DNA of 43,934 nt from a virus (IMGVR_UViG_2541047848_000002); one strand, 5' to 3'; counted from the stretch's first letter, positions 36,040 through 43,934 are shown. Notes: a model not told the origin generated them from the sequence alone. Numbers and translations are program-made.

Positions 36040-39000
36040 ATGGGTAAAGGCAGCAGTAAGGGGCATACCCCGCGCGAAGCGAAGGACAACCTGAAATCCA
36101 CGCAGCTGTTGAGTGCGATTGATGCCATCAGCGAAGGGCCGATTGAAGGTCCGGTGGATGGATTAAAAAGCGTGCTGCTGAACAGTACGCCGGTGCTGGA
36201 CAGTGAGGGGAATACCAATATCTCCGGCGTCACGGTGGTGTTCCGGGCAGGTGAGCAGGAGCAGTCACCGCCGGAGGGATTTGAATCCTCCGGTTCCGAG
36301 ACGGTGCTGGGTACGGAAGTGAAATATGAAACGCCGATCACCCGGACCATCACGTCGGCAAACATCGACCGTCTGCGCTTTACCTTCGGTGTACAGGCAC
36401 TGGTGGAAACCACCTCAAAGGGAGACAGGAATCCGTCGGAAGTCCGCCTGCTGGTTCAGATACAGCGTAACGGTGGCTGGGTGACGGAAAAAGACATCAC
36501 CATTAAGGGCAAAACCACCTCGCAGTATCTGGCCTCGGTGGTGGTGGATAACCTGCCGCCGCGCCCGTTCAATATCCGGATGCGCAGGATGACGCCGGAC
36601 AGCACCACAGACCAGCTGCAGAACAAAACGCTCTGGTCGTCATACACCGAAATCATCGATGTGAAACAGTGCTACCCGAACACGGCACTGGTCGGCGTAC
36701 AGGTGGACTCGGAGCAGTTCGGCAGCCAGCAGGTGAGCCGTAATTATCATCTTCGCGGGCGCATTCTGCAGGTGCCGTCGAACTATAACCCGCAGACGCG
36801 ACAATACAGCGGTATCTGGGACGGAACGTTAAAACCAGCATACAGCAACAACATGGCCTGGTGTCTGTGGGATATGCTGACCCACCCGCGCTACGGCATG
36901 GGGAAACGTCTTGGTGCGGCGGATGTGGACAAATGGGCGCTGTATGTCATCGGCCAGTACTGCGACCAGTCAGTGCCGGACGGCTTTGGCGGCACGGAGC
37001 CGCGCATCACCTGTAATGCGTACCTGACCACACAGCGCAAGGCGTGGGATGTGCTCAGTGATTTCTGCTCGGCGATGCGCTGTATGCCGGTATGGAACGG
37101 GCAGACGCTGACGTTCGTGCAGGACCGACAGTCGGATAAGGTGTGGACCTATAACCGCAGTAATGTGGTGATGCCGGATGATGGCGCGCCGTTCCGCTAC
37201 AGCTTCAGCGCCCTGAAGGACCGCCATAATGCCGTTGAGGTGAACTGGATTGACCCGAACAACGGCTGGGAGACGGCGACAGAGCTTGTTGAAGATACGC
37301 AGGCCATTGCCCGTTACGGTCGTAATGTCACGAAGATGGATGCCTTTGGTTGTACCAGCCGGGGGCAGGCACACCGCGCCGGGCTGTGGCTGATTAAAAC
37401 GGAACTGCTGGAAACGCAGACCGTGGATTTCAGCGTGGGCGCAGAAGGGCTTCGCCATGTGCCGGGCGATGTTATTGAAATCTGCGATGATGACTATGCC
37501 GGTATCAGCACCGGTGGTCGCGTGCTGGCGGTGAACAGCCAGACCCGGACGCTGACGCTCGACCGTGAAATCACGCTGCCATCCTCCGGTACCACGCTGA
37601 TAAGCCTGGTTGACGGAAGTGGCAATCCGGTCAGCGTGGAGGTTCAGTCCGTCACCGACGGCGTGAAGGTAAAAGTGAGCCGTGTTCCTGACGGTGTTGC
37701 TGAATACAGCGTATGGGGGCTGAAGCTGCCGACGCTGCGCCAGCGACTGTTCCGCTGCGTGAGTATCCGTGAGAACGACGACGGCACGTATGCCATCACC
37801 GCCGTGCAGCATGTGCCGGAAAAAGAGGCCATCGTGGATAACGGGGCGCACTTTGACGGCGAACAGAGTGGCACGGTGAATGGTGTCACGCCGCCAGCGG
37901 TGCAGCACCTGACCGCAGAAGTCACTGCAGACAGCGGGGAATATCAGGTGCTGGCGCGATGGGACACACCGAAGGTGGTGAAGGGCGTGAGCTTCCTGCT
38001 TCGCCTGACCGTGGCAGCGGATGACGGCAGTGAGCGGCTGGTCAGCACGGCCCGGACGACGGAAACCACATACCGCTTCACGCAACTGGCGCCAGGGAAC
38101 TACAGGCTGACAGTCCGGGCGGCAAATGCCTGGGGGCAGCAGGGCGATCCGGCATCGGTATCGTTCCGTATTGCCGCACCGGCAGCGCCGTCGCGGATTG
38201 AGCTGACGCCGGGCTATTTTCAGATAACCGCCACGCCCCATCTTGCCGTTTATGATCCGACGGTACAGTTTGAGTTCTGGTTCTCGGAAAAGCGGATTGC
38301 GGATATCAGGCAGGTTGAAACCACAGCCCGCTATCTTGGCACGGCGCTGTACTGGATAGCTGCCAGTATCAATATCAAACCGGGCCATGATTATTATTTT
38401 TACATCCGCAGTGTGAACACCGTTGGCAAATCGGCATTTGTGGAGGCTGTTGGCCAGCCGAGTGATGATGCATCCGGCTATCTGGATTTTTTCAAAGGCG
38501 AGATAGGGAAAAGCCATCTGGCTCAGGAGCTGTGGACGCAGATTGATAACGGTCAGCTTGCGCCTGACCTGGCTGAAATCAGGACGTCCATTACGGATGT
38601 CAGCAATGAAATCACGCAGACCGTCAATAAGAAACTGGAAGACCAGAGTGCGGCAATTCAGCAGATACAGAAGGTTCAGGTTGATACAAATAATAACCTG
38701 AACAGCATGTGGGCTGTGAAGCTGCAGCAGATGCAGGACGGACGCCTTTATATCGCGGGTATTGGTGCCGGTATTGAGAACACCCCTGACGGCATGCAGA
38801 GTCAGGTGCTGCTGGCGGCGGACAGGATTGCGATGGTTAATCCTGCGAATGGCAACACAAAGCCGATGTTTGTTGGTCAGGGCGATCAGATATTCATGAA
38901 CGAAGTGTTCCTGAAATATCTGACGGCTCCCACCATTACCAGCGGCGGTAATCCTCCGGCATTTTCCCTGACACCGGACGGGCGGCTGACGGCGAAAAAT

Positions 39001-39519
39001 GCCGATATCAGCGGTAGCGTGAATGCGAACTCCGGGACGCTCAACAACGTCACGATTAACGAGAACTGTCGGGTTCTGGGAAAACTGTCCGCGAACCAGA
39101 TTGAAGGCGATCTCGTTAAAACAGTGGGCAAAGCTTTCCCCCGGGACTCCCGTGCACCGGAGCGGTGGCCATCAGGGACCATTACCGTCAGGGTTTATGA
39201 CGATCAGCCGTTTGACCGGCAAATTGTTATTCCAGCGGTGGCTTTCAGCGGTGCCAGACATGAACGGGAGAATAGCGATACTTATTCGTCATGCCGCCTG
39301 ATAGTGAAGAAAAACGGGGCTGAAATTTATAACCGAACGGCTCTGGATAATACTCTGATTTACACGGGTGTTATTGATATGCCTGCAGGCAGTGGCGTAA
39401 TGACACTGGAGTTTTCTGTATCAGCATGGTGGGTAAATGGCTGGTATCCCACAGCAAGTATCAGCGATTTGCTGGTTGTTGTGATGAAGAAAGCCACTGC
39501 AGGCATCACGATTAGCTGA
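36040..39519 (+). CDS. J: Central tail fibre / host-specificity protein J
   Basis: 1159-aa ORF; N-terminal roughly 800 aa match lambda gpJ by recall; C-terminal receptor-binding region diverges from lambda. Confidence 0.95.
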
Positions 39520-39586: not shown

Positions 39587-40186
39587 ATGCGTAAATTATG
39601 TGCTGTTATTCTGTCCACAGTAGTCTGGCTGGTCGCCGCTGGTACGCCAGCGAGCGCAGCAGAGCATCAGTCCACACTAAGCGCCGGGTATCTTCAGACC
39701 CATACTGATATGCCCGGCAACGATGACCTGAAGGGCATTAACGTGAAATACCGTTATGAATTTACGGACACGCTGGGGCTGGTGACGTCATTCAGTTATG
39801 CCAATGCCAAAGATGAGCAAAAAACGCATTACAGCGATACCCGCTGGCATGAAGATTCAGTGCGTAACCGCTGGTTCAGCATGATGGCGGGGCCGTCTGT
39901 ACGCGTGAATGAATGGTTCAGTGCTTATGCGATGGCAGGTGTGGCTTACAGCCGTGTTTCGACTTTTTCCGGGGATTATCTCCGCGTAACTGACAGCAAG
40001 GGGAAAACGCACGATGTGCTGACCGGAAGTGATGACGGTCGCCACAGCAACACGTCTCTGGCGTGGGGGGCTGGCGTGCAGTTTAACCCGACCGAATCCG
40101 TGGCCATTGATATTGCTTATGAAGGCTCCGGCAGTGGTGACTGGCGCACTGACGGTTTCATCGTGGGTGTCGGTTATAAATTCTGA
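39587..40186 (+). CDS. lom: Outer-membrane protein Lom (Ail/Lom family)
   Basis: 199-aa ORF with signal peptide (MRKLCAVILSTVVWLVAAGTPASA) and beta-barrel-type C-terminus (...GVGYKF); lambda lom position. Confidence 0.9.
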   Translation: MRKLCAVILSTVVWLVAAGTPASAAEHQSTLSAGYLQTHTDMPGNDDLKGINVKYRYEFTDTLGLVTSFSYANAKDEQKTHYSDTRWHEDSVRNRWFSMMAGPSVRVNEWFSAYAMAGVAYSRVSTFSGDYLRVTDSKGKTHDVLTGSDDGRHSNTSLAWGAGVQFNPTESVAIDIAYEGSGSGDWRTDGFIVGVGYKF

Positions 40187-40239: not shown

Positions 40240-40250
40240 GTGGAGTGGAT

Positions 40251-42635
40251 ATGGCAGCAGTAAAAATCTCAGGTGTGCTGAAAGATGGTGCGGGAAAACC
40301 AATACAGAACTGCACTATTCAACTGAAGGCAAAGCGTAACAGCACCACGGTACTGGTGAACACGGTGGCCTCTGAAAATCCTGATGAAGCCGGGCGTTAC
40401 AGCATGGATGTTGAGTATGGCCAGTACAGCGTCACCCTGCTGGTTGAAGGTTTTCCGCCTTCACATGCCGGGACCATTACCGTCTATGAAGGCTCCAGAC
40501 CAGGTACGCTGAATGATTTTCTCGGTGCCATGACGGAAGATGATGTCATGCCGGAGGCATTGCGTCGTTTTGAACTGATGGTGGAAGAAGTGGCACGCAA
40601 CGCCGAAGCCGCCTCTCAGAGCGCAGCGGCGGCAAAGAAATCCGAAACTGCAGCGGCATCATCAAAGAACGCGGCGAAAACCTCAGAAACGAATGCAGCT
40701 AATAGTGCACAGGCGGCAGCGACCTCAAAGACTGCATCGGCAAACTCCGCGACAGCAGCCAAAAAATCAGAAACCAACGCGAAAAATAGCGAGACAGCCG
40801 CAAAGACGAGCGAAACCAACGCAAAGTCCAGCCAGACGGCAGCGAAAACCAGCGAAACGAATGCCAAAGCCAGTGAAACTGCGGCAAAAAACAGCCAGGT
40901 TGCAGCAGCCCAAAGCGAGAGCGCGGCAGCCGGTTCTGCGACTTCAGCAGCTGGATCAGCAACTGCTGCGGCTAACAGCCAGAAAGCTGCGAAGACGAGT
41001 GAAACTAACGCAAAGTCCAGCCAGACGGCAGCGAAGACCAGCGAAACGAATGCCAAAACCAGCGAAACTGCGGCGAAAAACAGTCAGGATGCAGCAGCCC
41101 AAAGCGAGAGTGCTGCAGCTGGTTCTGCAAGCGCGGCGGCTGCTTCTGCCATTGCATCAGCCAACAGTCAAAAAGCTGCAAAAACCAGTGAAACCAACGC
41201 AAAGGCGAGCGAGACTGCGGCTGCTAACTCGGCGAAAGCATCAGCTGCAAGCCAGACGGCTGCAAAAGCAAGTGAAGACGCAGCCAGGGAGTACGCAAGC
41301 CAGGCAGCAGAGCCGTATAAATATGTCTTACAGCCGCTTCCTGATGTGTGGATACCGTTTAACGATTCACTGGATATGATTACGGGCTTTTCGCCATCAT
41401 ATAAAAAGATTGTTATTGGTGATGATGAAATAACAATGCCTGGCGACAAGATTGTAAAGTTTAAACGCGCATCAAAAGCAACTTACATTAATAAATCTGG
41501 TGTGCTGACAGAGGCTGCAATCGATGAACCTCGCTTTGAAAAGTATGGATTGCTGATTGAAGGGCAGCGTACAAACCTGTTAATAAACAGCACAAATCCA
41601 TCAAAGTGGAACAAGTCATCAAATATGATTTTAAATACATCAGGTGTAGATGATTTTGGTTTCCAGTACGCAAAATTCACATTAAAACCAGAAATGGTGG
41701 GGCAAACCTCAGCCATTTCTATTGTCACAGTATCTGGAAGCAAAGGATATGATGTTACCGGCGATGAAAAGTATGTAACTATCTCATGCAGGGTACAAAG
41801 TGGGACTCCAAATTTAAGATGTCGATTACGATTTGAAGAATATGATGGATCTACCTACAAATTCCTGGGTGATGCTTACTTAAATATGACAGATTTATCG
41901 ATTGATAAAACTGGCGGCGCTGCAAGTCGTATTACTGCAAGGGCTGTTAAAAATGAAGCAAGCAAATGGATTTTCTTTGAGGCAACAATTAAGGCACTTG
42001 ATACAGAAAATATGATCGGTGCGATGGTGCAATATGCACCACCAAAAGGGGGAAGCACTGGTGCAGATGATTATATTTATGTTGCAACTCCTCAGGTCGA
42101 AGGCGGTTCGTGCGCTTCTTCGTTTATTATTACTGAGGCAACGCCAGTCACAAGAGCCAGTGATATGGTGAATATACCAACAAATAACAATATCGGTACA
42201 CCACCTTTAACATTTCTAGCTGAAGTTCATACAAACTGGAACGAAACGCCAAATGCAGCACCACGAATTTTTGATACCAGTGGTGGGAGCACAACTCCGG
42301 GTCAATATATAAGTGTTGCTATTAGTTCAACATTATTTCCTGGTGTTACGATGCACAATAAAAACGGTAGTACAGTAGCCGCCGTATCGCCAGTATTATT
42401 TGAACAAAAATCTGTTCTTGGATTTGTTTTAAATGAATCTGGTAATGTGCATTTCGTTAGCAATGCCCAGCATGGGACTCCTAAAACCACGGATCATGTC
42501 GGTGTTAAATCTGGTTATTTCTTCAGGATTGGGGGACAGACTAATAGCGGTCTACGTCATCTTTTCGGTCACATTCGTAATTTTCGTATATGGCATAAAG
42601 AATTAACCGATGCACAAATGGGAGAGGTAATATAA
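40251..42635 (+). CDS. stf: Side tail fibre protein (lambda Stf-like N-terminus, divergent low-GC C-terminal domain)
   Basis: ORF 40245..42635 (GTG on track); ATG at 40251 (MAAVKISGVLKDGAGKPIQNCTIQLKAKRNSTT...) matches lambda Stf N-terminus by recall; Ala/Ser/Thr-rich repeat shaft; C-terminal roughly 430 aa lower GC and unlike lambda. Confidence 0.9.
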   Translation: MAAVKISGVLKDGAGKPIQNCTIQLKAKRNSTTVLVNTVASENPDEAGRYSMDVEYGQYSVTLLVEGFPPSHAGTITVYEGSRPGTLNDFLGAMTEDDVMPEALRRFELMVEEVARNAEAASQSAAAAKKSETAAASSKNAAKTSETNAANSAQAAATSKTASANSATAAKKSETNAKNSETAAKTSETNAKSSQTAAKTSETNAKASETAAKNSQVAAAQSESAAAGSATSAAGSATAAANSQKAAKTSETNAKSSQTAAKTSETNAKTSETAAKNSQDAAAQSESAAAGSASAAAASAIASANSQKAAKTSETNAKASETAAANSAKASAASQTAAKASEDAAREYASQAAEPYKYVLQPLPDVWIPFNDSLDMITGFSPSYKKIVIGDDEITMPGDKIVKFKRASKATYINKSGVLTEAAIDEPRFEKYGLLIEGQRTNLLINSTNPSKWNKSSNMILNTSGVDDFGFQYAKFTLKPEMVGQTSAISIVTVSGSKGYDVTGDEKYVTISCRVQSGTPNLRCRLRFEEYDGSTYKFLGDAYLNMTDLSIDKTGGAASRITARAVKNEASKWIFFEATIKALDTENMIGAMVQYAPPKGGSTGADDYIYVATPQVEGGSCASSFIITEATPVTRASDMVNIPTNNNIGTPPLTFLAEVHTNWNETPNAAPRIFDTSGGSTTPGQYISVAISSTLFPGVTMHNKNGSTVAAVSPVLFEQKSVLGFVLNESGNVHFVSNAQHGTPKTTDHVGVKSGYFFRIGGQTNSGLRHLFGHIRNFRIWHKELTDAQMGEVI
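40802..41128 (+). repeat. In-frame 189-bp tandem duplication inside stf (two about 138-bp units at roughly 90% identity)
   Basis: Units at 40802-40939 and 40991-41128 align by eye (…AGACGAGCGAAACCAACGCAAAGTCCAGCCAGACGGCAGCGAAAACCAGCGAAACGAATGCCAAA…GCAGCAGCCCAAAGCGAGAG…GGTTCTGC); period 189 bp = 63 codons. Confidence 0.7.
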
Positions 42636-42916
42636 TGCGAGACTTAATTATCAAATTCACAGACAAGGCCGACTTTTCGGCCTTTATGGATAGCATTGGT
42701 TATGACGATGACGAGGTGATGCAGAACAATGTTCTCATTGATGTGATAGGTAACGTGTACAAAGAAACCGGGGAAATTACTGAAGATGGCGAGCCGGTAT
42801 GTGTTAAGGAAGACGGATATTTTGTAAACGTGCGCATCATTAATGATGTGAAAACACCGTCAATATTCGATGAATACGCGGTTGTTGTTGAGCATCAACT
42901 TCGTGGCTGGATGTGA
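42635..42916 (+). CDS. Hypothetical acidic protein after stf
   Basis: 93-aa ORF whose ATG overlaps the stf stop (TAATAATG); no domain recognised. Confidence 0.5.
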   Translation: MRDLIIKFTDKADFSAFMDSIGYDDDEVMQNNVLIDVIGNVYKETGEITEDGEPVCVKEDGYFVNVRIINDVKTPSIFDEYAVVVEHQLRGWM

Positions 42917-42925
42917 GGGAGACAA

Positions 42926-43630
42926 ATGGCTACATCGACAGTAATTCCTGGAGATATCACCACGCTAAAGGGAGATGTCAGTAAAACTAAGGAAGATATT
43001 TCCTCAATTAACGGAAAAGTATCAACGCTTCAGATTGATATGACCAGTGCAAAGCAGGATATCAGCACCAGATACACAAAAACTGAAGTTGATAATAAGC
43101 TGAAAAACAAAGTGGAAGCGAACGATCTGGAAAGCGGTCGTTATGGCGGTGATTTTTACCCGCTGACTGGCCGCGAAGCGTTTTATTTATGGGGGTTGGG
43201 CACGACTACTGCGGCGGCAAACCTTTATCTTAATCCTGACCCTGCAATTTCGTCTGTACTGCGGTCCACATCGTCTATCCGCTATAAACATTCAGTAGAG
43301 ACGATAGATTCAGAGCACGCCGATGTCATTTTCAGGATGCGCCCTGTGTGGTACAGGTCGCAATGCGAAAATGACAGGCGTGACTGGGGGTTCTACGGAT
43401 TGATTGCCGAGGAAGTAGGAGAAATTGCCCCTCAGTTTGTACACTGGCGACCAGCTAACGAAGATGATGCTCCTGAAGCTATTTCCAGCAATGGCCTTGT
43501 TGCCGAAGGTGTAATGTACGAACGTCTGGTTGTTCCACTGATTCACCATATCCAGAAGCTGACTGAAAGAGTTGATGAACTTGAGTCAGAATTAAAGTTG
43601 TTATTAACTTCCCGAAGCGATATCGGATAA
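42926..43630 (+). CDS. Tail-fibre-associated protein with C-terminal intramolecular-chaperone-like (peptidase S74-like) domain
   Basis: 234-aa ORF; C-terminal roughly 110 aa (SSIRYKHSVETIDSEHADVIFRMRPVWYRS...WGFYGLIAEEVGEIAPQFV...LVVPLIHHIQKLTERVDELESEL) fit my recollection of the self-cleaving chaperone domain of phage fibres/endosialidases. Confidence 0.6.
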   Translation: MATSTVIPGDITTLKGDVSKTKEDISSINGKVSTLQIDMTSAKQDISTRYTKTEVDNKLKNKVEANDLESGRYGGDFYPLTGREAFYLWGLGTTTAAANLYLNPDPAISSVLRSTSSIRYKHSVETIDSEHADVIFRMRPVWYRSQCENDRRDWGFYGLIAEEVGEIAPQFVHWRPANEDDAPEAISSNGLVAEGVMYERLVVPLIHHIQKLTERVDELESELKLLLTSRSDIG

Positions 43631-43640
43631 AGGAGGAATA

Positions 43641-43934
43641 ATGGATATAACACCTTTCCTTCATGCACTTTGTGCTGTGGCTGCGCAGGTACTGGTTGGT
43701 CTTTTTACCGGAAACTGGGCTTACGGGGCGATAGCCGGTTGTACGTTCTTCATTGCGCGTGAACACACCCAGGCAGAATATCGCTGGATCGAAATGTTCG
43801 GGCATGGCAAGCGAATGAATATGCCGTGGTGGGGCGGTTTTGATACACGTGCATGGGATGTGGCAAGCCTGATGGATTTTGCTGTGCCGGTGGTGGCGTG
43901 TCTGCTGGTCTGGCTGTTGGTTAATCGTGGGTGA
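43641..43934 (+). CDS. Hypothetical small membrane protein
   Basis: 97-aa ORF with hydrophobic segments at both ends; last ORF in window, stop at the final base. Confidence 0.5.
   Translation: MDITPFLHALCAVAAQVLVGLFTGNWAYGAIAGCTFFIAREHTQAEYRWIEMFGHGKRMNMPWWGGFDTRAWDVASLMDFAVPVVACLLVWLLVNRG

What the first reader, a model, noticed from the sequence alone, without database searches (positions are those of the whole stretch)
41320..43934. Swapped distal tail-fibre module: low-GC stf C-terminus plus a separate ORF carrying an intramolecular-chaperone-like domain and a small membrane protein
The stf C-terminal roughly 430 aa drop in GC and do not resemble the lambda Stf distal domain as I recall it. 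In place of lambda tfa there are three ORFs: a 93-aa acidic protein, a 234-aa protein whose C-terminal roughly 110 aa carry the hallmark pattern of self-cleaving chaperone domains of phage fibres (…RPVWY…GFYGLIAEEVGEIAPQFV…VVPLIHHIQKL…ELESEL), and a 97-aa membrane protein. A chaperone domain encoded on a short separate protein rather than fused to the fibre it folds is unusual; this may be a second short fibre or an assembly factor acting in trans.
Basis: partly seen in the sequence, partly recalled or inferred. Interest (0 to 1): 0.55.

Follow-up and report, generated by a model that had tools for sequence, protein, structure and literature searches.

The report
Split side tail fibre with self-cleaving stub
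This E. coli lambda-like prophage carries a common, already-annotated alternative tail-fibre cassette in which a lectin-tipped side fibre is followed by a small helper protein and a very short second fibre protein with its own self-cleaving folding domain; it is real but ordinary for coliphages.

Summary
GC falls from about 0.55 to 0.36-0.44 at about 41300. The Stf distal 430 aa are unrelated to lambda's. Three tightly packed ORFs (93, 234 and 97 aa) follow. The 234-aa protein has a genuine Peptidase_S74 intramolecular-chaperone (IMC) domain: it scores above Pfam's threshold, Ser116 and Lys121 are invariant, and the predicted fold matches solved IMC domains.

The arrangement is not rare. The same cassette occurs in about 200 complete E. 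coli genomes at 80% coverage or more, in the plaque-forming phage IdasGreatGrand, and in Drexlerviridae, Seuratvirus and T5-like phages. BASEL records annotate its homologue "putative lateral tail fiber chaperone".

Comparison favours a split (two-part) side fibre:
- Stf is the proximal fibre, with a hypervariable lectin-like domain.
- The 93-aa protein always accompanies that domain.
- The next gene is a slot holding alleles of 234, 346, 384 or 574 aa. All share a conserved 17-residue N-terminus and a C-terminal IMC.

The 234-aa allele is the minimal one: anchor, five-heptad coiled coil, 65-aa tip and IMC. It is under purifying selection and does not co-vary with the Stf receptor-binding domain. 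The same tip+IMC module is fused to Stf in other prophages. A trans-acting chaperone role is not excluded. The 97-aa membrane protein occurs only in temperate phages and is not part of the fibre cassette.

The parts
40251..42635 (+). stf, side tail fibre (proximal subunit). The listed ORF starts at GTG 40245; the likely start is ATG 40251.
   Evidence: PF08400 covers aa 5-134 at 224 bits. phrog_1419 matches full length. Identity to lambda orf-401 is 62% over aa 5-285. The RBS and start were read.
41334..41575 (+). Conserved entry segment of the non-lambda distal module (Stf aa 364 to about 444, PLPDVWIPFNDSLDM...).
   Evidence: Conserved in phage 21 Stf and T5-like IrisVonRoten Gp22. DNA identity to other prophages continues up to 41575-41612.
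41576..42557 (+). Hypervariable receptor-binding region of Stf (aa about 445-771). It includes the GTA-head-spike-fibre-like domain.
   Evidence: NF048003 covers aa 437-638 at 60.9 bits against a cut-off of 36. PDB 6tb9 RcGTA head spike fibre matches at E 2.4e-5. No DNA similarity to otherwise 92-95% identical prophages in this interval. Protein identity ranges from 37 to 100% across 80 loci.
42558..42635 (+). Conserved C-terminal end of Stf (...RHLFGHIRNFRIWHKELTDAQMGEVI).
   Evidence: Nearly invariant in lambdoid, Drexlerviridae, Seuratvirus, T5-like and rV5-like proximal fibres. DNA identity resumes at 42557.
42635..42916 (+). orf93: acidic 93-aa alpha/beta protein, translationally coupled to stf. 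It is an obligate companion of this type of fibre end; its function is unknown.
42926..42976 (+). orf234 N-terminal anchor motif (aa 1-17, MATSTVIPGDITTLKGD).
   Evidence: Identity is 14/17 to the 346-aa allele, 11/17 to IrisVonRoten Gp24, 12/17 to KarlJaspers and 11/17 to VogelGryff, while the rest of the mature parts is unrelated. phrog_4563 and phrog_19752 match aa 1-32 only.
42956..43066 (+). orf234 coiled-coil shaft (aa 11-47).
   Evidence: A 3-4 hydrophobic spacing runs I11 L14 V18 T21 I25 I28 V32 L35 M39 A42 I46 (read from the sequence). AF2 predicts a helix at 11-47. phmmer finds similarity to the trimeric tail-needle coiled coil 4lin.
43073..43270 (+). orf234 fibre-tip segment (aa 50-115), ending at the predicted cleavage site T115|S116.
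   Evidence: Homologous at 59% identity, together with the IMC, to the extreme C-terminus of true lambda-type Stf proteins P0209 and P0210 and of other long fibres. Low pLDDT as a monomer.
43271..43630 (+). orf234 intramolecular chaperone / Peptidase_S74 domain (aa 116-234 plus stop). Ser116 is at 43271-43273 and Lys121 at 43286-43288.
   Evidence: PF13884 scores 27.3 bits against GA 22. S116 and K121 are invariant in 32 homologues. pLDDT is 88-95. Foldseek top hits are 7dc3 MyRF ICA (E 1.7e-5), 3gud and 3gw6. The best PDB sequence hit is the DT57C LtfA IMC, 8hqz. dN/dS 0.12.
43641..43934 (+). orf97: small two-segment membrane protein. It is a temperate-phage accessory gene, not part of the fibre cassette of virulent phages.
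   Evidence: phrog_1443. It is 96% identical in phage 21, where it is annotated with 2 TMDs. It is found only in temperate phages. dN/dS 0.12. No PADLOC, Pfam or NCBIfam hit.

Best explanation
The region encodes a split (two-protein) side tail fibre plus one helper.

Stf is the proximal subunit. Its lambda-type N-terminus fixes it to the tail tip. An Ala-rich shaft follows. A foreign distal module ends in a hypervariable lectin-like domain that resembles the GTA head-spike fibre and probably binds surface glycans.

orf93 is translationally coupled to stf and always accompanies this fibre end. It is probably an assembly factor or adaptor (inferred).

orf234 is the smallest allele of a distal-subunit gene that occupies the next slot. 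Its parts are:
- a conserved 17-residue N-terminal anchor, which would dock it to the constant end of the Stf-orf93 assembly (inferred);
- a five-heptad coiled coil;
- a 65-residue fibre tip;
- a C-terminal S74 intramolecular chaperone.

The chaperone would trimerise the protein in cis and then cut itself off before Ser116 using the Ser116/Lys121 dyad. That would leave a 12.4-kDa (115-aa) trimeric stub on the fibre (inferred from family knowledge).

orf97 is a separate membrane protein of temperate phages.

Shown here: the domain identities, the conserved catalytic residues, the modular allele structure, purifying selection, and the lack of co-variation with the Stf receptor-binding domain. 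Not shown: cleavage, presence in the virion, and the docking partner.
For: S74 identity:
- The Pfam score is above threshold.
- S116 and K121 are invariant.
- The AF2 model has pLDDT 88-95 over the IMC, and Foldseek hits MyRF ICA, GA-1 and endoNF IMCs.
- The best PDB sequence hit is the DT57C LtfA IMC, with Ser and Lys aligned.

Slot and allele structure:
- In 80 IMG/VR loci the gene 10 nt after orf93 is an intact 227-234-aa form in 53, plus 3 more cut short (2 by the contig end, 1 by a premature stop). It is a 346-aa form in 22, of which 5 are truncated and 1 runs off the contig end. In the other 2 loci the contig ends first.
- The 346-aa, 574-aa (IrisVonRoten Gp24) and 384-aa (VogelGryff) alleles all have PF13884 or an S-x4-K motif at the C-terminus.
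- They share 11-14 of the first 17 residues with orf234, but only 24-29% identity in the IMC and nothing in between.
- Allele exchange breakpoints lie at codon about 20 of orf234 and at the orf97 start.

Published models. AlphaFold-Multimer models place IrisVonRoten Gp24 on the proximal fibre Gp22 (10.1101/2024.09.12.612763). Gp22 is 48% identical to this Stf overall and about 60% over the distal module.

Fused counterpart. The tip+IMC module of orf234 (aa 50-223) is 59% identical to the C-terminus of Stf proteins that carry PF08400. It is therefore a genuine fibre end.

Functionality:
- dN/dS is 0.21 (mature part) and 0.12 (IMC) over 27-29 alleles.
- The gene is intact in the plaque-forming phage IdasGreatGrand.
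- It is 55-61% identical along its full length in compact virulent Drexlerviridae.
Against: - No experiment or multimer model here shows attachment or cleavage.
- The mature part is only 115 aa. It stays 90-100% identical while the Stf receptor-binding domain varies from 37 to 100%. That is not how a typical receptor-binding subunit behaves.
- The tip region has pLDDT below 50 in the monomer model.
- BASEL curators chose the label 'putative lateral tail fiber chaperone' for the homologue.
- Whether the anchor binds Stf, orf93 or something else is unknown.
- The DT57C LtfB anchor (phiEco32 gp15-like) is a different sequence family according to the paper (PMC4728585). The analogy is therefore architectural, not homologous.
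Confidence: 0.6

Rival explanations
1. Trans-acting assembly chaperone or cap. orf234 docks through its N-terminus on the conserved C-terminal end of Stf, which has neither an IMC nor a Tfa. IMC-driven trimerisation then nucleates or locks the Stf trimer. After self-cleavage, nothing or only a small cap remains.
For: - This Stf type has no cis IMC, and tfa has been deleted.
- orf234 is conserved while the Stf RBD varies. That fits a partner of the constant Stf end (RHLFGHIRNFRIWHK...).
- The mature part is very small.
- The BASEL GenBank records label the homologues 'putative lateral tail fiber chaperone'.
Against: - Phage 21 and several lambda-like phages have the same Stf type plus orf93 but no S74 gene. 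rV5-like phages likewise lack it. The fibre end can therefore apparently be made without it.
- The slot also holds 346-574-aa alleles with large mature parts, which look like fibres rather than chaperones.
- The orf234 tip+IMC is homologous to cis-acting ends of complete Stf proteins.
- All characterised S74 IMCs act in cis (family knowledge: endoNF, T5 pb1, GA-1 gp12).
- orf93 is the better candidate for a dedicated chaperone because it co-occurs strictly with this fibre end.
Confidence: 0.2
2. Evolutionary leftover. orf234 is the decaying C-terminal remnant of a longer fibre gene, left behind by the module swap. It has no present function.
For: The whole protein aligns to positions 1147-1383 of the 1385-position phrog_3299. 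The same tip+IMC ends long fibres. A few truncated copies exist among prophages, of 157-229 aa.
Against: - It has its own RBS and ATG, and a conserved N-terminal motif shared with independent genes in unrelated phage families.
- dN/dS is 0.12-0.21.
- It is intact in 53 of the 56 loci of this allele class, with only 1 interrupted by a premature stop.
- It is present in virulent Drexlerviridae with compact genomes and in a plaque-forming lambdoid phage.
- The catalytic Ser and Lys are invariant.
Confidence: 0.05
3. Independent short fibre or other virion appendage. It would attach somewhere other than Stf (for example the tail tip), or act in the cell envelope together with orf97.
For: Attachment to Stf is only inferred. 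The gene neighbours orf97 with a 10-nt gap. The N-terminal motif could bind any conserved partner.
Against: - In every phage group examined the anchor-bearing gene occurs only behind the Stf-type fibre end plus orf93. These groups have different tail tips, and most lack orf97.
- The reverse does not hold: the fibre end plus orf93 occurs without the anchor-bearing gene.
- Published multimer models place the long allele on the proximal fibre.
Confidence: 0.1

Closest known systems
IrisVonRoten (T5-like, Bas32) lateral tail fibre locus Gp22-Gp23-Gp24 (BASEL; 10.1101/2024.09.12.612763)
   Same: Same gene order and spacing: a 796-aa proximal fibre, then a 92-aa protein, then 10 nt, then a distal protein with the M-x-T-x-TVIP-x-DIT-x-LK N-terminus and a C-terminal S74 IMC. 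The distal module of Gp22 is about 60% identical to that of this Stf, and Gp23 is 42% identical to orf93.
   Different: Gp24 is 574 aa, with two receptor-binding domains ('T-shaped'). orf234 has only 115 mature residues and no such domains. The host phage is virulent, attaches its fibre through a T5-type N-terminus, and has no orf97.
KarlJaspers bas06_0035 / PeterMerian 'putative lateral tail fiber chaperone' (Drexlerviridae, BASEL) and 'chaperone of endosialidase' ORFs of SECphi27, JK16 and XY3
   Same: These are direct orthologues of orf234: 221-231 aa, 55-61% identity over the full length, with the same anchor, coiled coil, tip and IMC, and the same position after an orf93 homologue.
   Different: They sit in virulent T1-like phages. 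The number of coiled-coil repeats differs. No function has been tested in either case.
DT57C LtfA/LtfB branched lateral tail fibres (PMC4728585; PMC10713586)
   Same: The fibre is built from two separately encoded proteins, and the distal or branch protein carries its own autocleavable PF13884 domain. The LtfA IMC is the best solved-structure sequence match of orf234.
   Different: In DT57C both LtfA and LtfB end in an IMC; here Stf has none. According to the paper, the LtfB anchor is phiEco32 gp15-like, a different motif. No orf93-like gene is described there.
Lambda-type Stf proteins with a fused tip+IMC end (for example P0209, 735 aa, and P0210, 958 aa)
   Same: Same PF08400 N-terminus as this Stf. 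Their C-terminus is 59% identical to orf234 aa 50-223, including the Ser/Lys site.
   Different: There the module is fused in cis to the whole fibre. Here it is a separate gene with an added N-terminal anchor, and Stf ends in a lectin-like domain instead.
Lambda Stf-Tfa
   Same: Same genomic position after J and lom, and the same Stf N-terminal attachment domain and Ala-rich shaft.
   Different: The distal half of Stf is unrelated. The Tfa chaperone is replaced, with only its last about 105 nt surviving just beyond the window.

Membership tests
Peptidase S74 / intramolecular chaperone auto-processing domain (PF13884) | Profile match at or above Pfam's gathering score | tested here: met
   27.3 bits against 22, E 4.5e-6, covering aa 116-172 and model positions 1-57 of 58.
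Peptidase S74 / intramolecular chaperone auto-processing domain (PF13884) | Catalytic Ser at the domain start with Lys five residues downstream (S-x4-K, as in endoNF Ser911/Lys916; own knowledge of the family) | tested here: met
   S116 and K121 are invariant in 27 and 32 aligned homologues. They align to the Ser and Lys of the DT57C LtfA IMC.
Peptidase S74 / intramolecular chaperone auto-processing domain (PF13884) | IMC fold (beta core plus long C-terminal helix) | tested here: met
   The AF2 model has pLDDT 88-95 over aa 125-225. Foldseek hits 7dc3 at E 1.7e-5 (probability 1.0), 3gud at E 0.06 and 3gw6 at E 0.08. The matches to the phage IMCs are weak; the match to MyRF ICA is strong.
Peptidase S74 / intramolecular chaperone auto-processing domain (PF13884) | C-terminal position behind a trimeric fibre segment that it folds | tested here: met
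   The domain occupies the C-terminal 119 aa. It is preceded by a heptad coiled coil and by a tip homologous to the ends of complete fibres. Trimer formation itself was not tested.
Peptidase S74 / intramolecular chaperone auto-processing domain (PF13884) | Autoproteolytic release after folding | not testable with these tools
   Needs SDS-PAGE or MS of the expressed protein and of S116A/K121A mutants.
Distal subunit of a split or branched lateral tail fibre (IrisVonRoten Gp24 type) | Encoded directly downstream of the proximal fibre gene and the ~92-aa gene, in the same operon | tested here: met
   A 10-nt spacing after orf93 is conserved in the 78 of 80 IMG/VR loci that extend past orf93, and in IrisVonRoten.
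Distal subunit of a split or branched lateral tail fibre (IrisVonRoten Gp24 type) | Conserved N-terminal anchor with an exchangeable remainder | tested here: met
   11-14 of the first 17 residues are identical across the 234-, 346-, 384- and 574-aa alleles. The middle parts are unrelated and the IMCs are 24-29% identical. Recombination breakpoints lie at codon about 20 and at orf97.
Distal subunit of a split or branched lateral tail fibre (IrisVonRoten Gp24 type) | Carries a variable receptor-binding domain | tested here: inconclusive
   There is only a 65-aa tip, and it is 90-100% conserved while the Stf RBD varies from 37 to 100%. It is homologous to real fibre ends, but no binding function can be inferred.
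Distal subunit of a split or branched lateral tail fibre (IrisVonRoten Gp24 type) | Physically attached to the proximal fibre in the virion | not testable with these tools
   Only single-chain prediction was available. Published multimer models exist for the long allele only.
Lambda/Mu/P2-type tail fibre assembly protein (Tfa, Caudo_TAP) | Sequence membership of orf93 or orf234 | tested here: not met
   No Pfam, NCBIfam or PHROG Tfa match for either protein. The only tfa trace is a 3' remnant outside the window.
GTA head-spike-fibre-like domain (NF048003), for the Stf distal region | Profile match above NCBI's cut-off | tested here: met
   60.9 bits against 36, covering aa 437-638 and model positions 1-181 of 182. 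PDB 6tb9 matches at E 2.4e-5 over a short stretch.

The most novel reading that the evidence does not exclude
The 234-aa protein is not a receptor binder. It is a self-cleaving, trans-acting trimerisation device. Its conserved N-terminal peptide threads onto the constant C-terminal end of an Stf that lacks both an IMC and a Tfa. The IMC nucleates the hetero-assembly, possibly with orf93, and then removes itself, leaving a 12-kDa cap. That would be the first intramolecular-chaperone domain shown to work intermolecularly on another fibre protein.
Probability: 0.15. Interest if true: 0.6.

Novelty: new member of a known kind. Interest (0 to 1): 0.3.

Why it matters
The finding mainly improves annotation. 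In hundreds of E. coli prophages the genes after stf are labelled 'hypothetical' or 'tail fiber domain-containing'. They can now be read as a constant accessory block (orf93, an anchor-bearing S74 protein, a membrane protein) behind a sharply delimited hypervariable Stf receptor-binding segment (41576-42557).

That boundary map is useful for engineering lambda-type particles with swapped side fibres, because it indicates which accessory genes may have to travel with the fibre end.

One biological question remains open and is cheap to test: what does a 115-residue, invariant fibre stub with its own chaperone add to a fibre that already ends in a lectin-like domain?

Tried and rejected
- **orf97 function.** There are no Pfam, NCBIfam or PADLOC hits. 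The idea that it is a fibre-assembly factor was rejected because it is confined to temperate phages and is 96% identical in phage 21 despite a divergent fibre.
- **Remnant reading.** The phrog_3299 match first suggested a remnant of a 1385-aa fibre. This was rejected on selection, intactness and the shared N-terminal motif.
- **Literature.** Searches for a description of this cassette in lambdoid phages found nothing relevant. A search for virion proteomics of the short S74 protein found only a fused 559-aa case.
- **Modelling limits.** Locus-derived homologues could not be added to the AF2 alignment. Multimer modelling of Stf, orf93 and orf234 was not possible with the single-chain tool.
- **Transcription signals.** No sigma-70-like promoters or terminators above chance lie inside the cassette. 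It reads as part of the late operon.

Full report
**Context and anatomy**

The window is a lambda-like E. coli prophage. Its right end reads J (36040-39519), lom (39587-40186), stf (ORF 40245-42635) and then three small ORFs on the same strand: orf93 (42635-42916), orf234 (42926-43630) and orf97 (43641-43934, ending on the last base of the window). The likely stf start is ATG 40251, behind a GGAG site and just after a terminator-like hairpin.

The genes are packed as one operon:
- The stf stop overlaps the orf93 start (TAATG).
- orf234 starts 10 nt after the orf93 stop, behind GAGGGAG.
- orf97 starts 10 nt after orf234, behind AAGGAGG.
- No promoter-like or terminator-like sites above chance lie inside the cassette.

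**Checking the observation**

GC is 0.53-0.56 up to about 41250, then 0.44, then 0.36-0.44 through 42900, and 0.45-0.50 to the end.

Stf residues 5-134 are PF08400 (224 bits), and residues 5-285 are 62% identical to lambda orf-401. The distal part has no similarity to lambda orf-314. The foreign part begins at residue 364 (nucleotide about 41334), so the finding's start coordinate is right.

orf93 is acidic (pI 4.1). orf97 has two hydrophobic stretches, and its 96%-identical phage 21 homologue is annotated with two transmembrane segments.

In genomes with an identical cassette, the 105 nt after orf97 are the 3' end of lambda tfa at about 88% identity. PGAP annotates them as a truncated tail fibre assembly gene. 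The cassette therefore replaced the distal half of stf and all but the end of tfa.

**The S74 domain is real**

- Pfam PF13884 matches orf234 aa 116-172 at 27.3 bits (gathering score 22, E 4.5e-6).
- Ser116 and Lys121 are invariant in alignments of 27 and 32 homologues. Their S-x4-K spacing is that of the catalytic dyad of this family (own knowledge: endoNF Ser911/Lys916).
- The best solved-structure sequence match is the IMC of DT57C LtfA (8hqz), with the Ser and Lys aligned. MyRF ICA also appears.
- An AlphaFold2 model built on 32 sequences has pLDDT 88-95 over aa 125-225. Foldseek against the PDB returns MyRF ICA 7dc3 (E 1.7e-5, probability 1.0), the GA-1 IMC 3gud and the endoNF IMC 3gw6 as the top hits.

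**How common is the arrangement**

The 2.6-kb region matches 1910 of 5426 complete E. coli genomes in part and 198 over at least 80% of its length. It is 97.8% identical in the isolated phage IdasGreatGrand, which has the same four genes.

Full-length orthologues of orf234 (221-231 aa, 55-61% identity) sit in more than 40 virulent Drexlerviridae. There they are annotated 'putative lateral tail fiber chaperone', 'chaperone of endosialidase' or hypothetical.

orf93 homologues follow the lateral or side fibre gene in 179 phage records. These include lambda-likes (phage 21), Drexlerviridae, Dhillonvirus, Seuratvirus, T5-likes and rV5-likes.

So a short separate S74 protein behind the fibre gene is a recurrent, already-annotated feature of coliphages. 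It is not an oddity of this prophage.

**What the comparisons show**

*1. The Stf distal module is a shared fibre end.*
- It is about 57% identical to phage 21 Stf and about 60% to Gp22 of the T5-like phage IrisVonRoten.
- It contains an NF048003 'GTA head spike fibre' domain (aa 437-638, 60.9 bits against 36). A short stretch matches PDB 6tb9.
- The BASEL authors describe the Gp22 end as a galectin-like domain on a proximal fibre that carries a second, distal fibre, Gp24 (10.1101/2024.09.12.612763).

*2. Within E. coli prophages only part of this module varies.*
- DNA identity to otherwise similar prophages (89-92%) stops at 41575-41612 and resumes (94-95%) at 42557, 26 codons before the stf stop. 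It then continues through orf93, orf234 and orf97.
- Across 80 IMG/VR loci the Stf distal protein is 37-100% identical to the window's. orf93 stays at 81-100%, orf234 at 89-100% and orf97 at 89-100%.
- orf234 therefore does not co-vary with the receptor-binding part of Stf.

*3. The position after orf93 is a slot with alleles.* Of the 80 loci:
- 53 have an intact 227-234-aa form. A further 3 copies of this form are cut short, 2 by the contig end and 1 by a premature stop.
- 22 have a 346-aa form, of which 5 are truncated and 1 runs off the contig end.
- In 2 the contig ends right after orf93.

Phage 21 has nothing in the slot and goes straight to orf97. IrisVonRoten has the 574-aa Gp24 and VogelGryff a 384-aa protein. 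The 346-aa and 574-aa alleles score PF13884 above threshold at their C-terminus (52 and 47 bits), and the VogelGryff protein carries the S-x4-K motif at the matching position.

All alleles begin with the same motif. Of the first 17 residues, 14, 11, 12 and 11 are identical to orf234 in the 346-aa allele, Gp24, KarlJaspers and VogelGryff respectively. The long alleles share only 24-29% identity in the IMC and nothing recognisable in between. The 234/346 allele exchange is bounded by codon about 20 of the gene and by the start of orf97.

A conserved N-terminus with an exchangeable remainder is the standard signature of a receptor-binding or fibre protein that plugs into a constant partner.

*4. 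The mature part of orf234 looks like a miniature fibre.*
- A clean 3-4 hydrophobic repeat runs from I11 to I46. AF2 predicts it as one helix, and it resembles a trimeric tail-needle coiled coil.
- A 65-residue segment follows. Together with the IMC it is 59% identical to the very end of complete lambda-type Stf proteins: P0209 (735 aa) and P0210 (958 aa), both with PF08400 at the N-terminus. It also resembles the ends of other long fibres.
- So other prophages carry this tip+IMC fused to Stf. Here it is a separate gene with an anchor added.

*5. The gene is maintained.* dN/dS is 0.21 for the mature part and 0.12 for the IMC over 27-29 distinct alleles. Only 1 of the 56 copies of this allele is interrupted by a premature stop. 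It also persists in virulent phages with compact genomes.

**Most likely mechanism** (confidence about 0.6; shown and inferred steps are marked)

- Shown: Stf is the proximal subunit. It has a lambda-type attachment domain, an Ala-rich shaft, and a foreign end with a hypervariable lectin-like domain between two constant segments.
- Shown: orf93 is a small acidic alpha/beta protein, translationally coupled to stf and strictly linked to this fibre end, even where no S74 gene is present (phage 21, rV5-likes).
- Inferred: orf93 is the assembly factor or adaptor for that end. Its fold gave no functional lead.
- Shown: orf234 has an anchor motif, a heptad coiled coil, a fibre-end homologue and an intact S74 domain.
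- Inferred from family knowledge: the IMC trimerises orf234 in cis and cleaves before Ser116. This releases the 13.7-kDa chaperone and leaves a 12.4-kDa trimeric stub.
- Inferred: the stub docks by its N-terminal 17 residues on the constant end of the Stf-orf93 assembly, as proposed from multimer models for the long allele Gp24.
- Open: what the stub binds, if anything. Its invariance next to a hypervariable Stf domain suggests a conserved ligand or a purely structural cap.

**Rivals**

- *Trans-acting chaperone for Stf (about 0.2).* It fits the lack of any cis chaperone or Tfa for this Stf, the small mature part and the BASEL label. Against it: phages with the same fibre end and orf93 but no S74 gene; the long fibre-like alleles in the same slot; the cis-fused homologues; and orf93 being the better chaperone candidate.
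- *Non-functional remnant (about 0.05).* Selection, intactness and the shared start motif contradict it.
- *Attachment elsewhere or another role (about 0.1).* It cannot be excluded without structural data. It is unlikely because the anchor-bearing gene occurs only behind this fibre end, in phages with very different tails.

**orf97**

It is 94-98% identical across lambdoid phages whose fibre modules differ. It occurs only in temperate phages and is missing from every virulent phage that carries the cassette. It matches no defence, Pfam or NCBIfam model. It is best treated as a separate accessory membrane protein of unknown role. A lysogenic-conversion or exclusion function is only a guess.

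**Comparison with known systems and novelty**

- Functionally and architecturally this is the two-protein lateral tail fibre described for DT57C (LtfA/LtfB; PMC4728585, PMC10713586).
- By homology it is the Gp22-Gp23-Gp24 locus of IrisVonRoten.
- orf234 itself is an orthologue of the Drexlerviridae proteins annotated as putative lateral tail fibre chaperones.
- It meets the testable criteria for the S74 family. It meets two of the three testable criteria for a distal-subunit gene; the presence of a variable receptor-binding domain is inconclusive.
- It is not a Tfa.
- I found no paper describing this cassette in lambdoid prophages or testing the short allele. The kind is known, so I rate it a new member of a known kind, with interest 0.3.

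The most novel reading still open is an S74 domain acting intermolecularly on Stf. It would be interesting, but I give it about 15%.

Noticed in passing
window 41576-42557: Only this roughly 1-kb piece of stf (aa about 445-771) is hypervariable among otherwise 89-95% identical prophages. Recombination boundaries sit at 41575-41612 and 42557, leaving the last 26 codons of stf constant.
   Followed up: yes
window 43641-43934 (orf97): Small two-segment membrane protein, 94-98% conserved in lambdoid phages with different fibre modules. It is present only in temperate phages, with distant relatives in Aeromonas and Halomonas phages near tail-fibre genes. Function unknown; no defence-system match.
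   Followed up: partly
[not shown]
   Followed up: yes
window 40785-41033 and 40974-41221: Internal direct repeat in the Ala-rich stf shaft, about 82% identical at a 189-nt offset (SETNAK-type units). It probably lets shaft length vary between prophages: Stf is 686-796 aa in relatives.
   Followed up: no
window 42914-42928: orf93 and orf234 are in the same reading frame, separated by TGA plus 9 nt. The 10-nt spacing is identical in the 78 of 80 IMG/VR loci that extend past orf93 and in the T5-like phage IrisVonRoten. Stop-codon read-through was not examined.
   Followed up: no
L023 6292-7332 and 21 other IMG/VR loci: An alternative 346-aa allele occupies the orf234 slot. It has the same first 17-27 residues, an unrelated 200-aa middle and its own strong S74 domain (52 bits). 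Several copies are truncated (90-299 aa).
   Followed up: partly
L005 (phage 21) 5677-9126: In phage 21 the sitABCD iron/manganese transporter genes lie immediately downstream of the orf97 homologue, on the opposite strand. The fibre end of these phages is therefore a cargo insertion site.
   Followed up: no
window 36970-38517, minus strand: A 515-aa antisense ORF lies inside gene J. It is most likely an artefact of the high GC there (0.57-0.65), not a gene.
   Followed up: no
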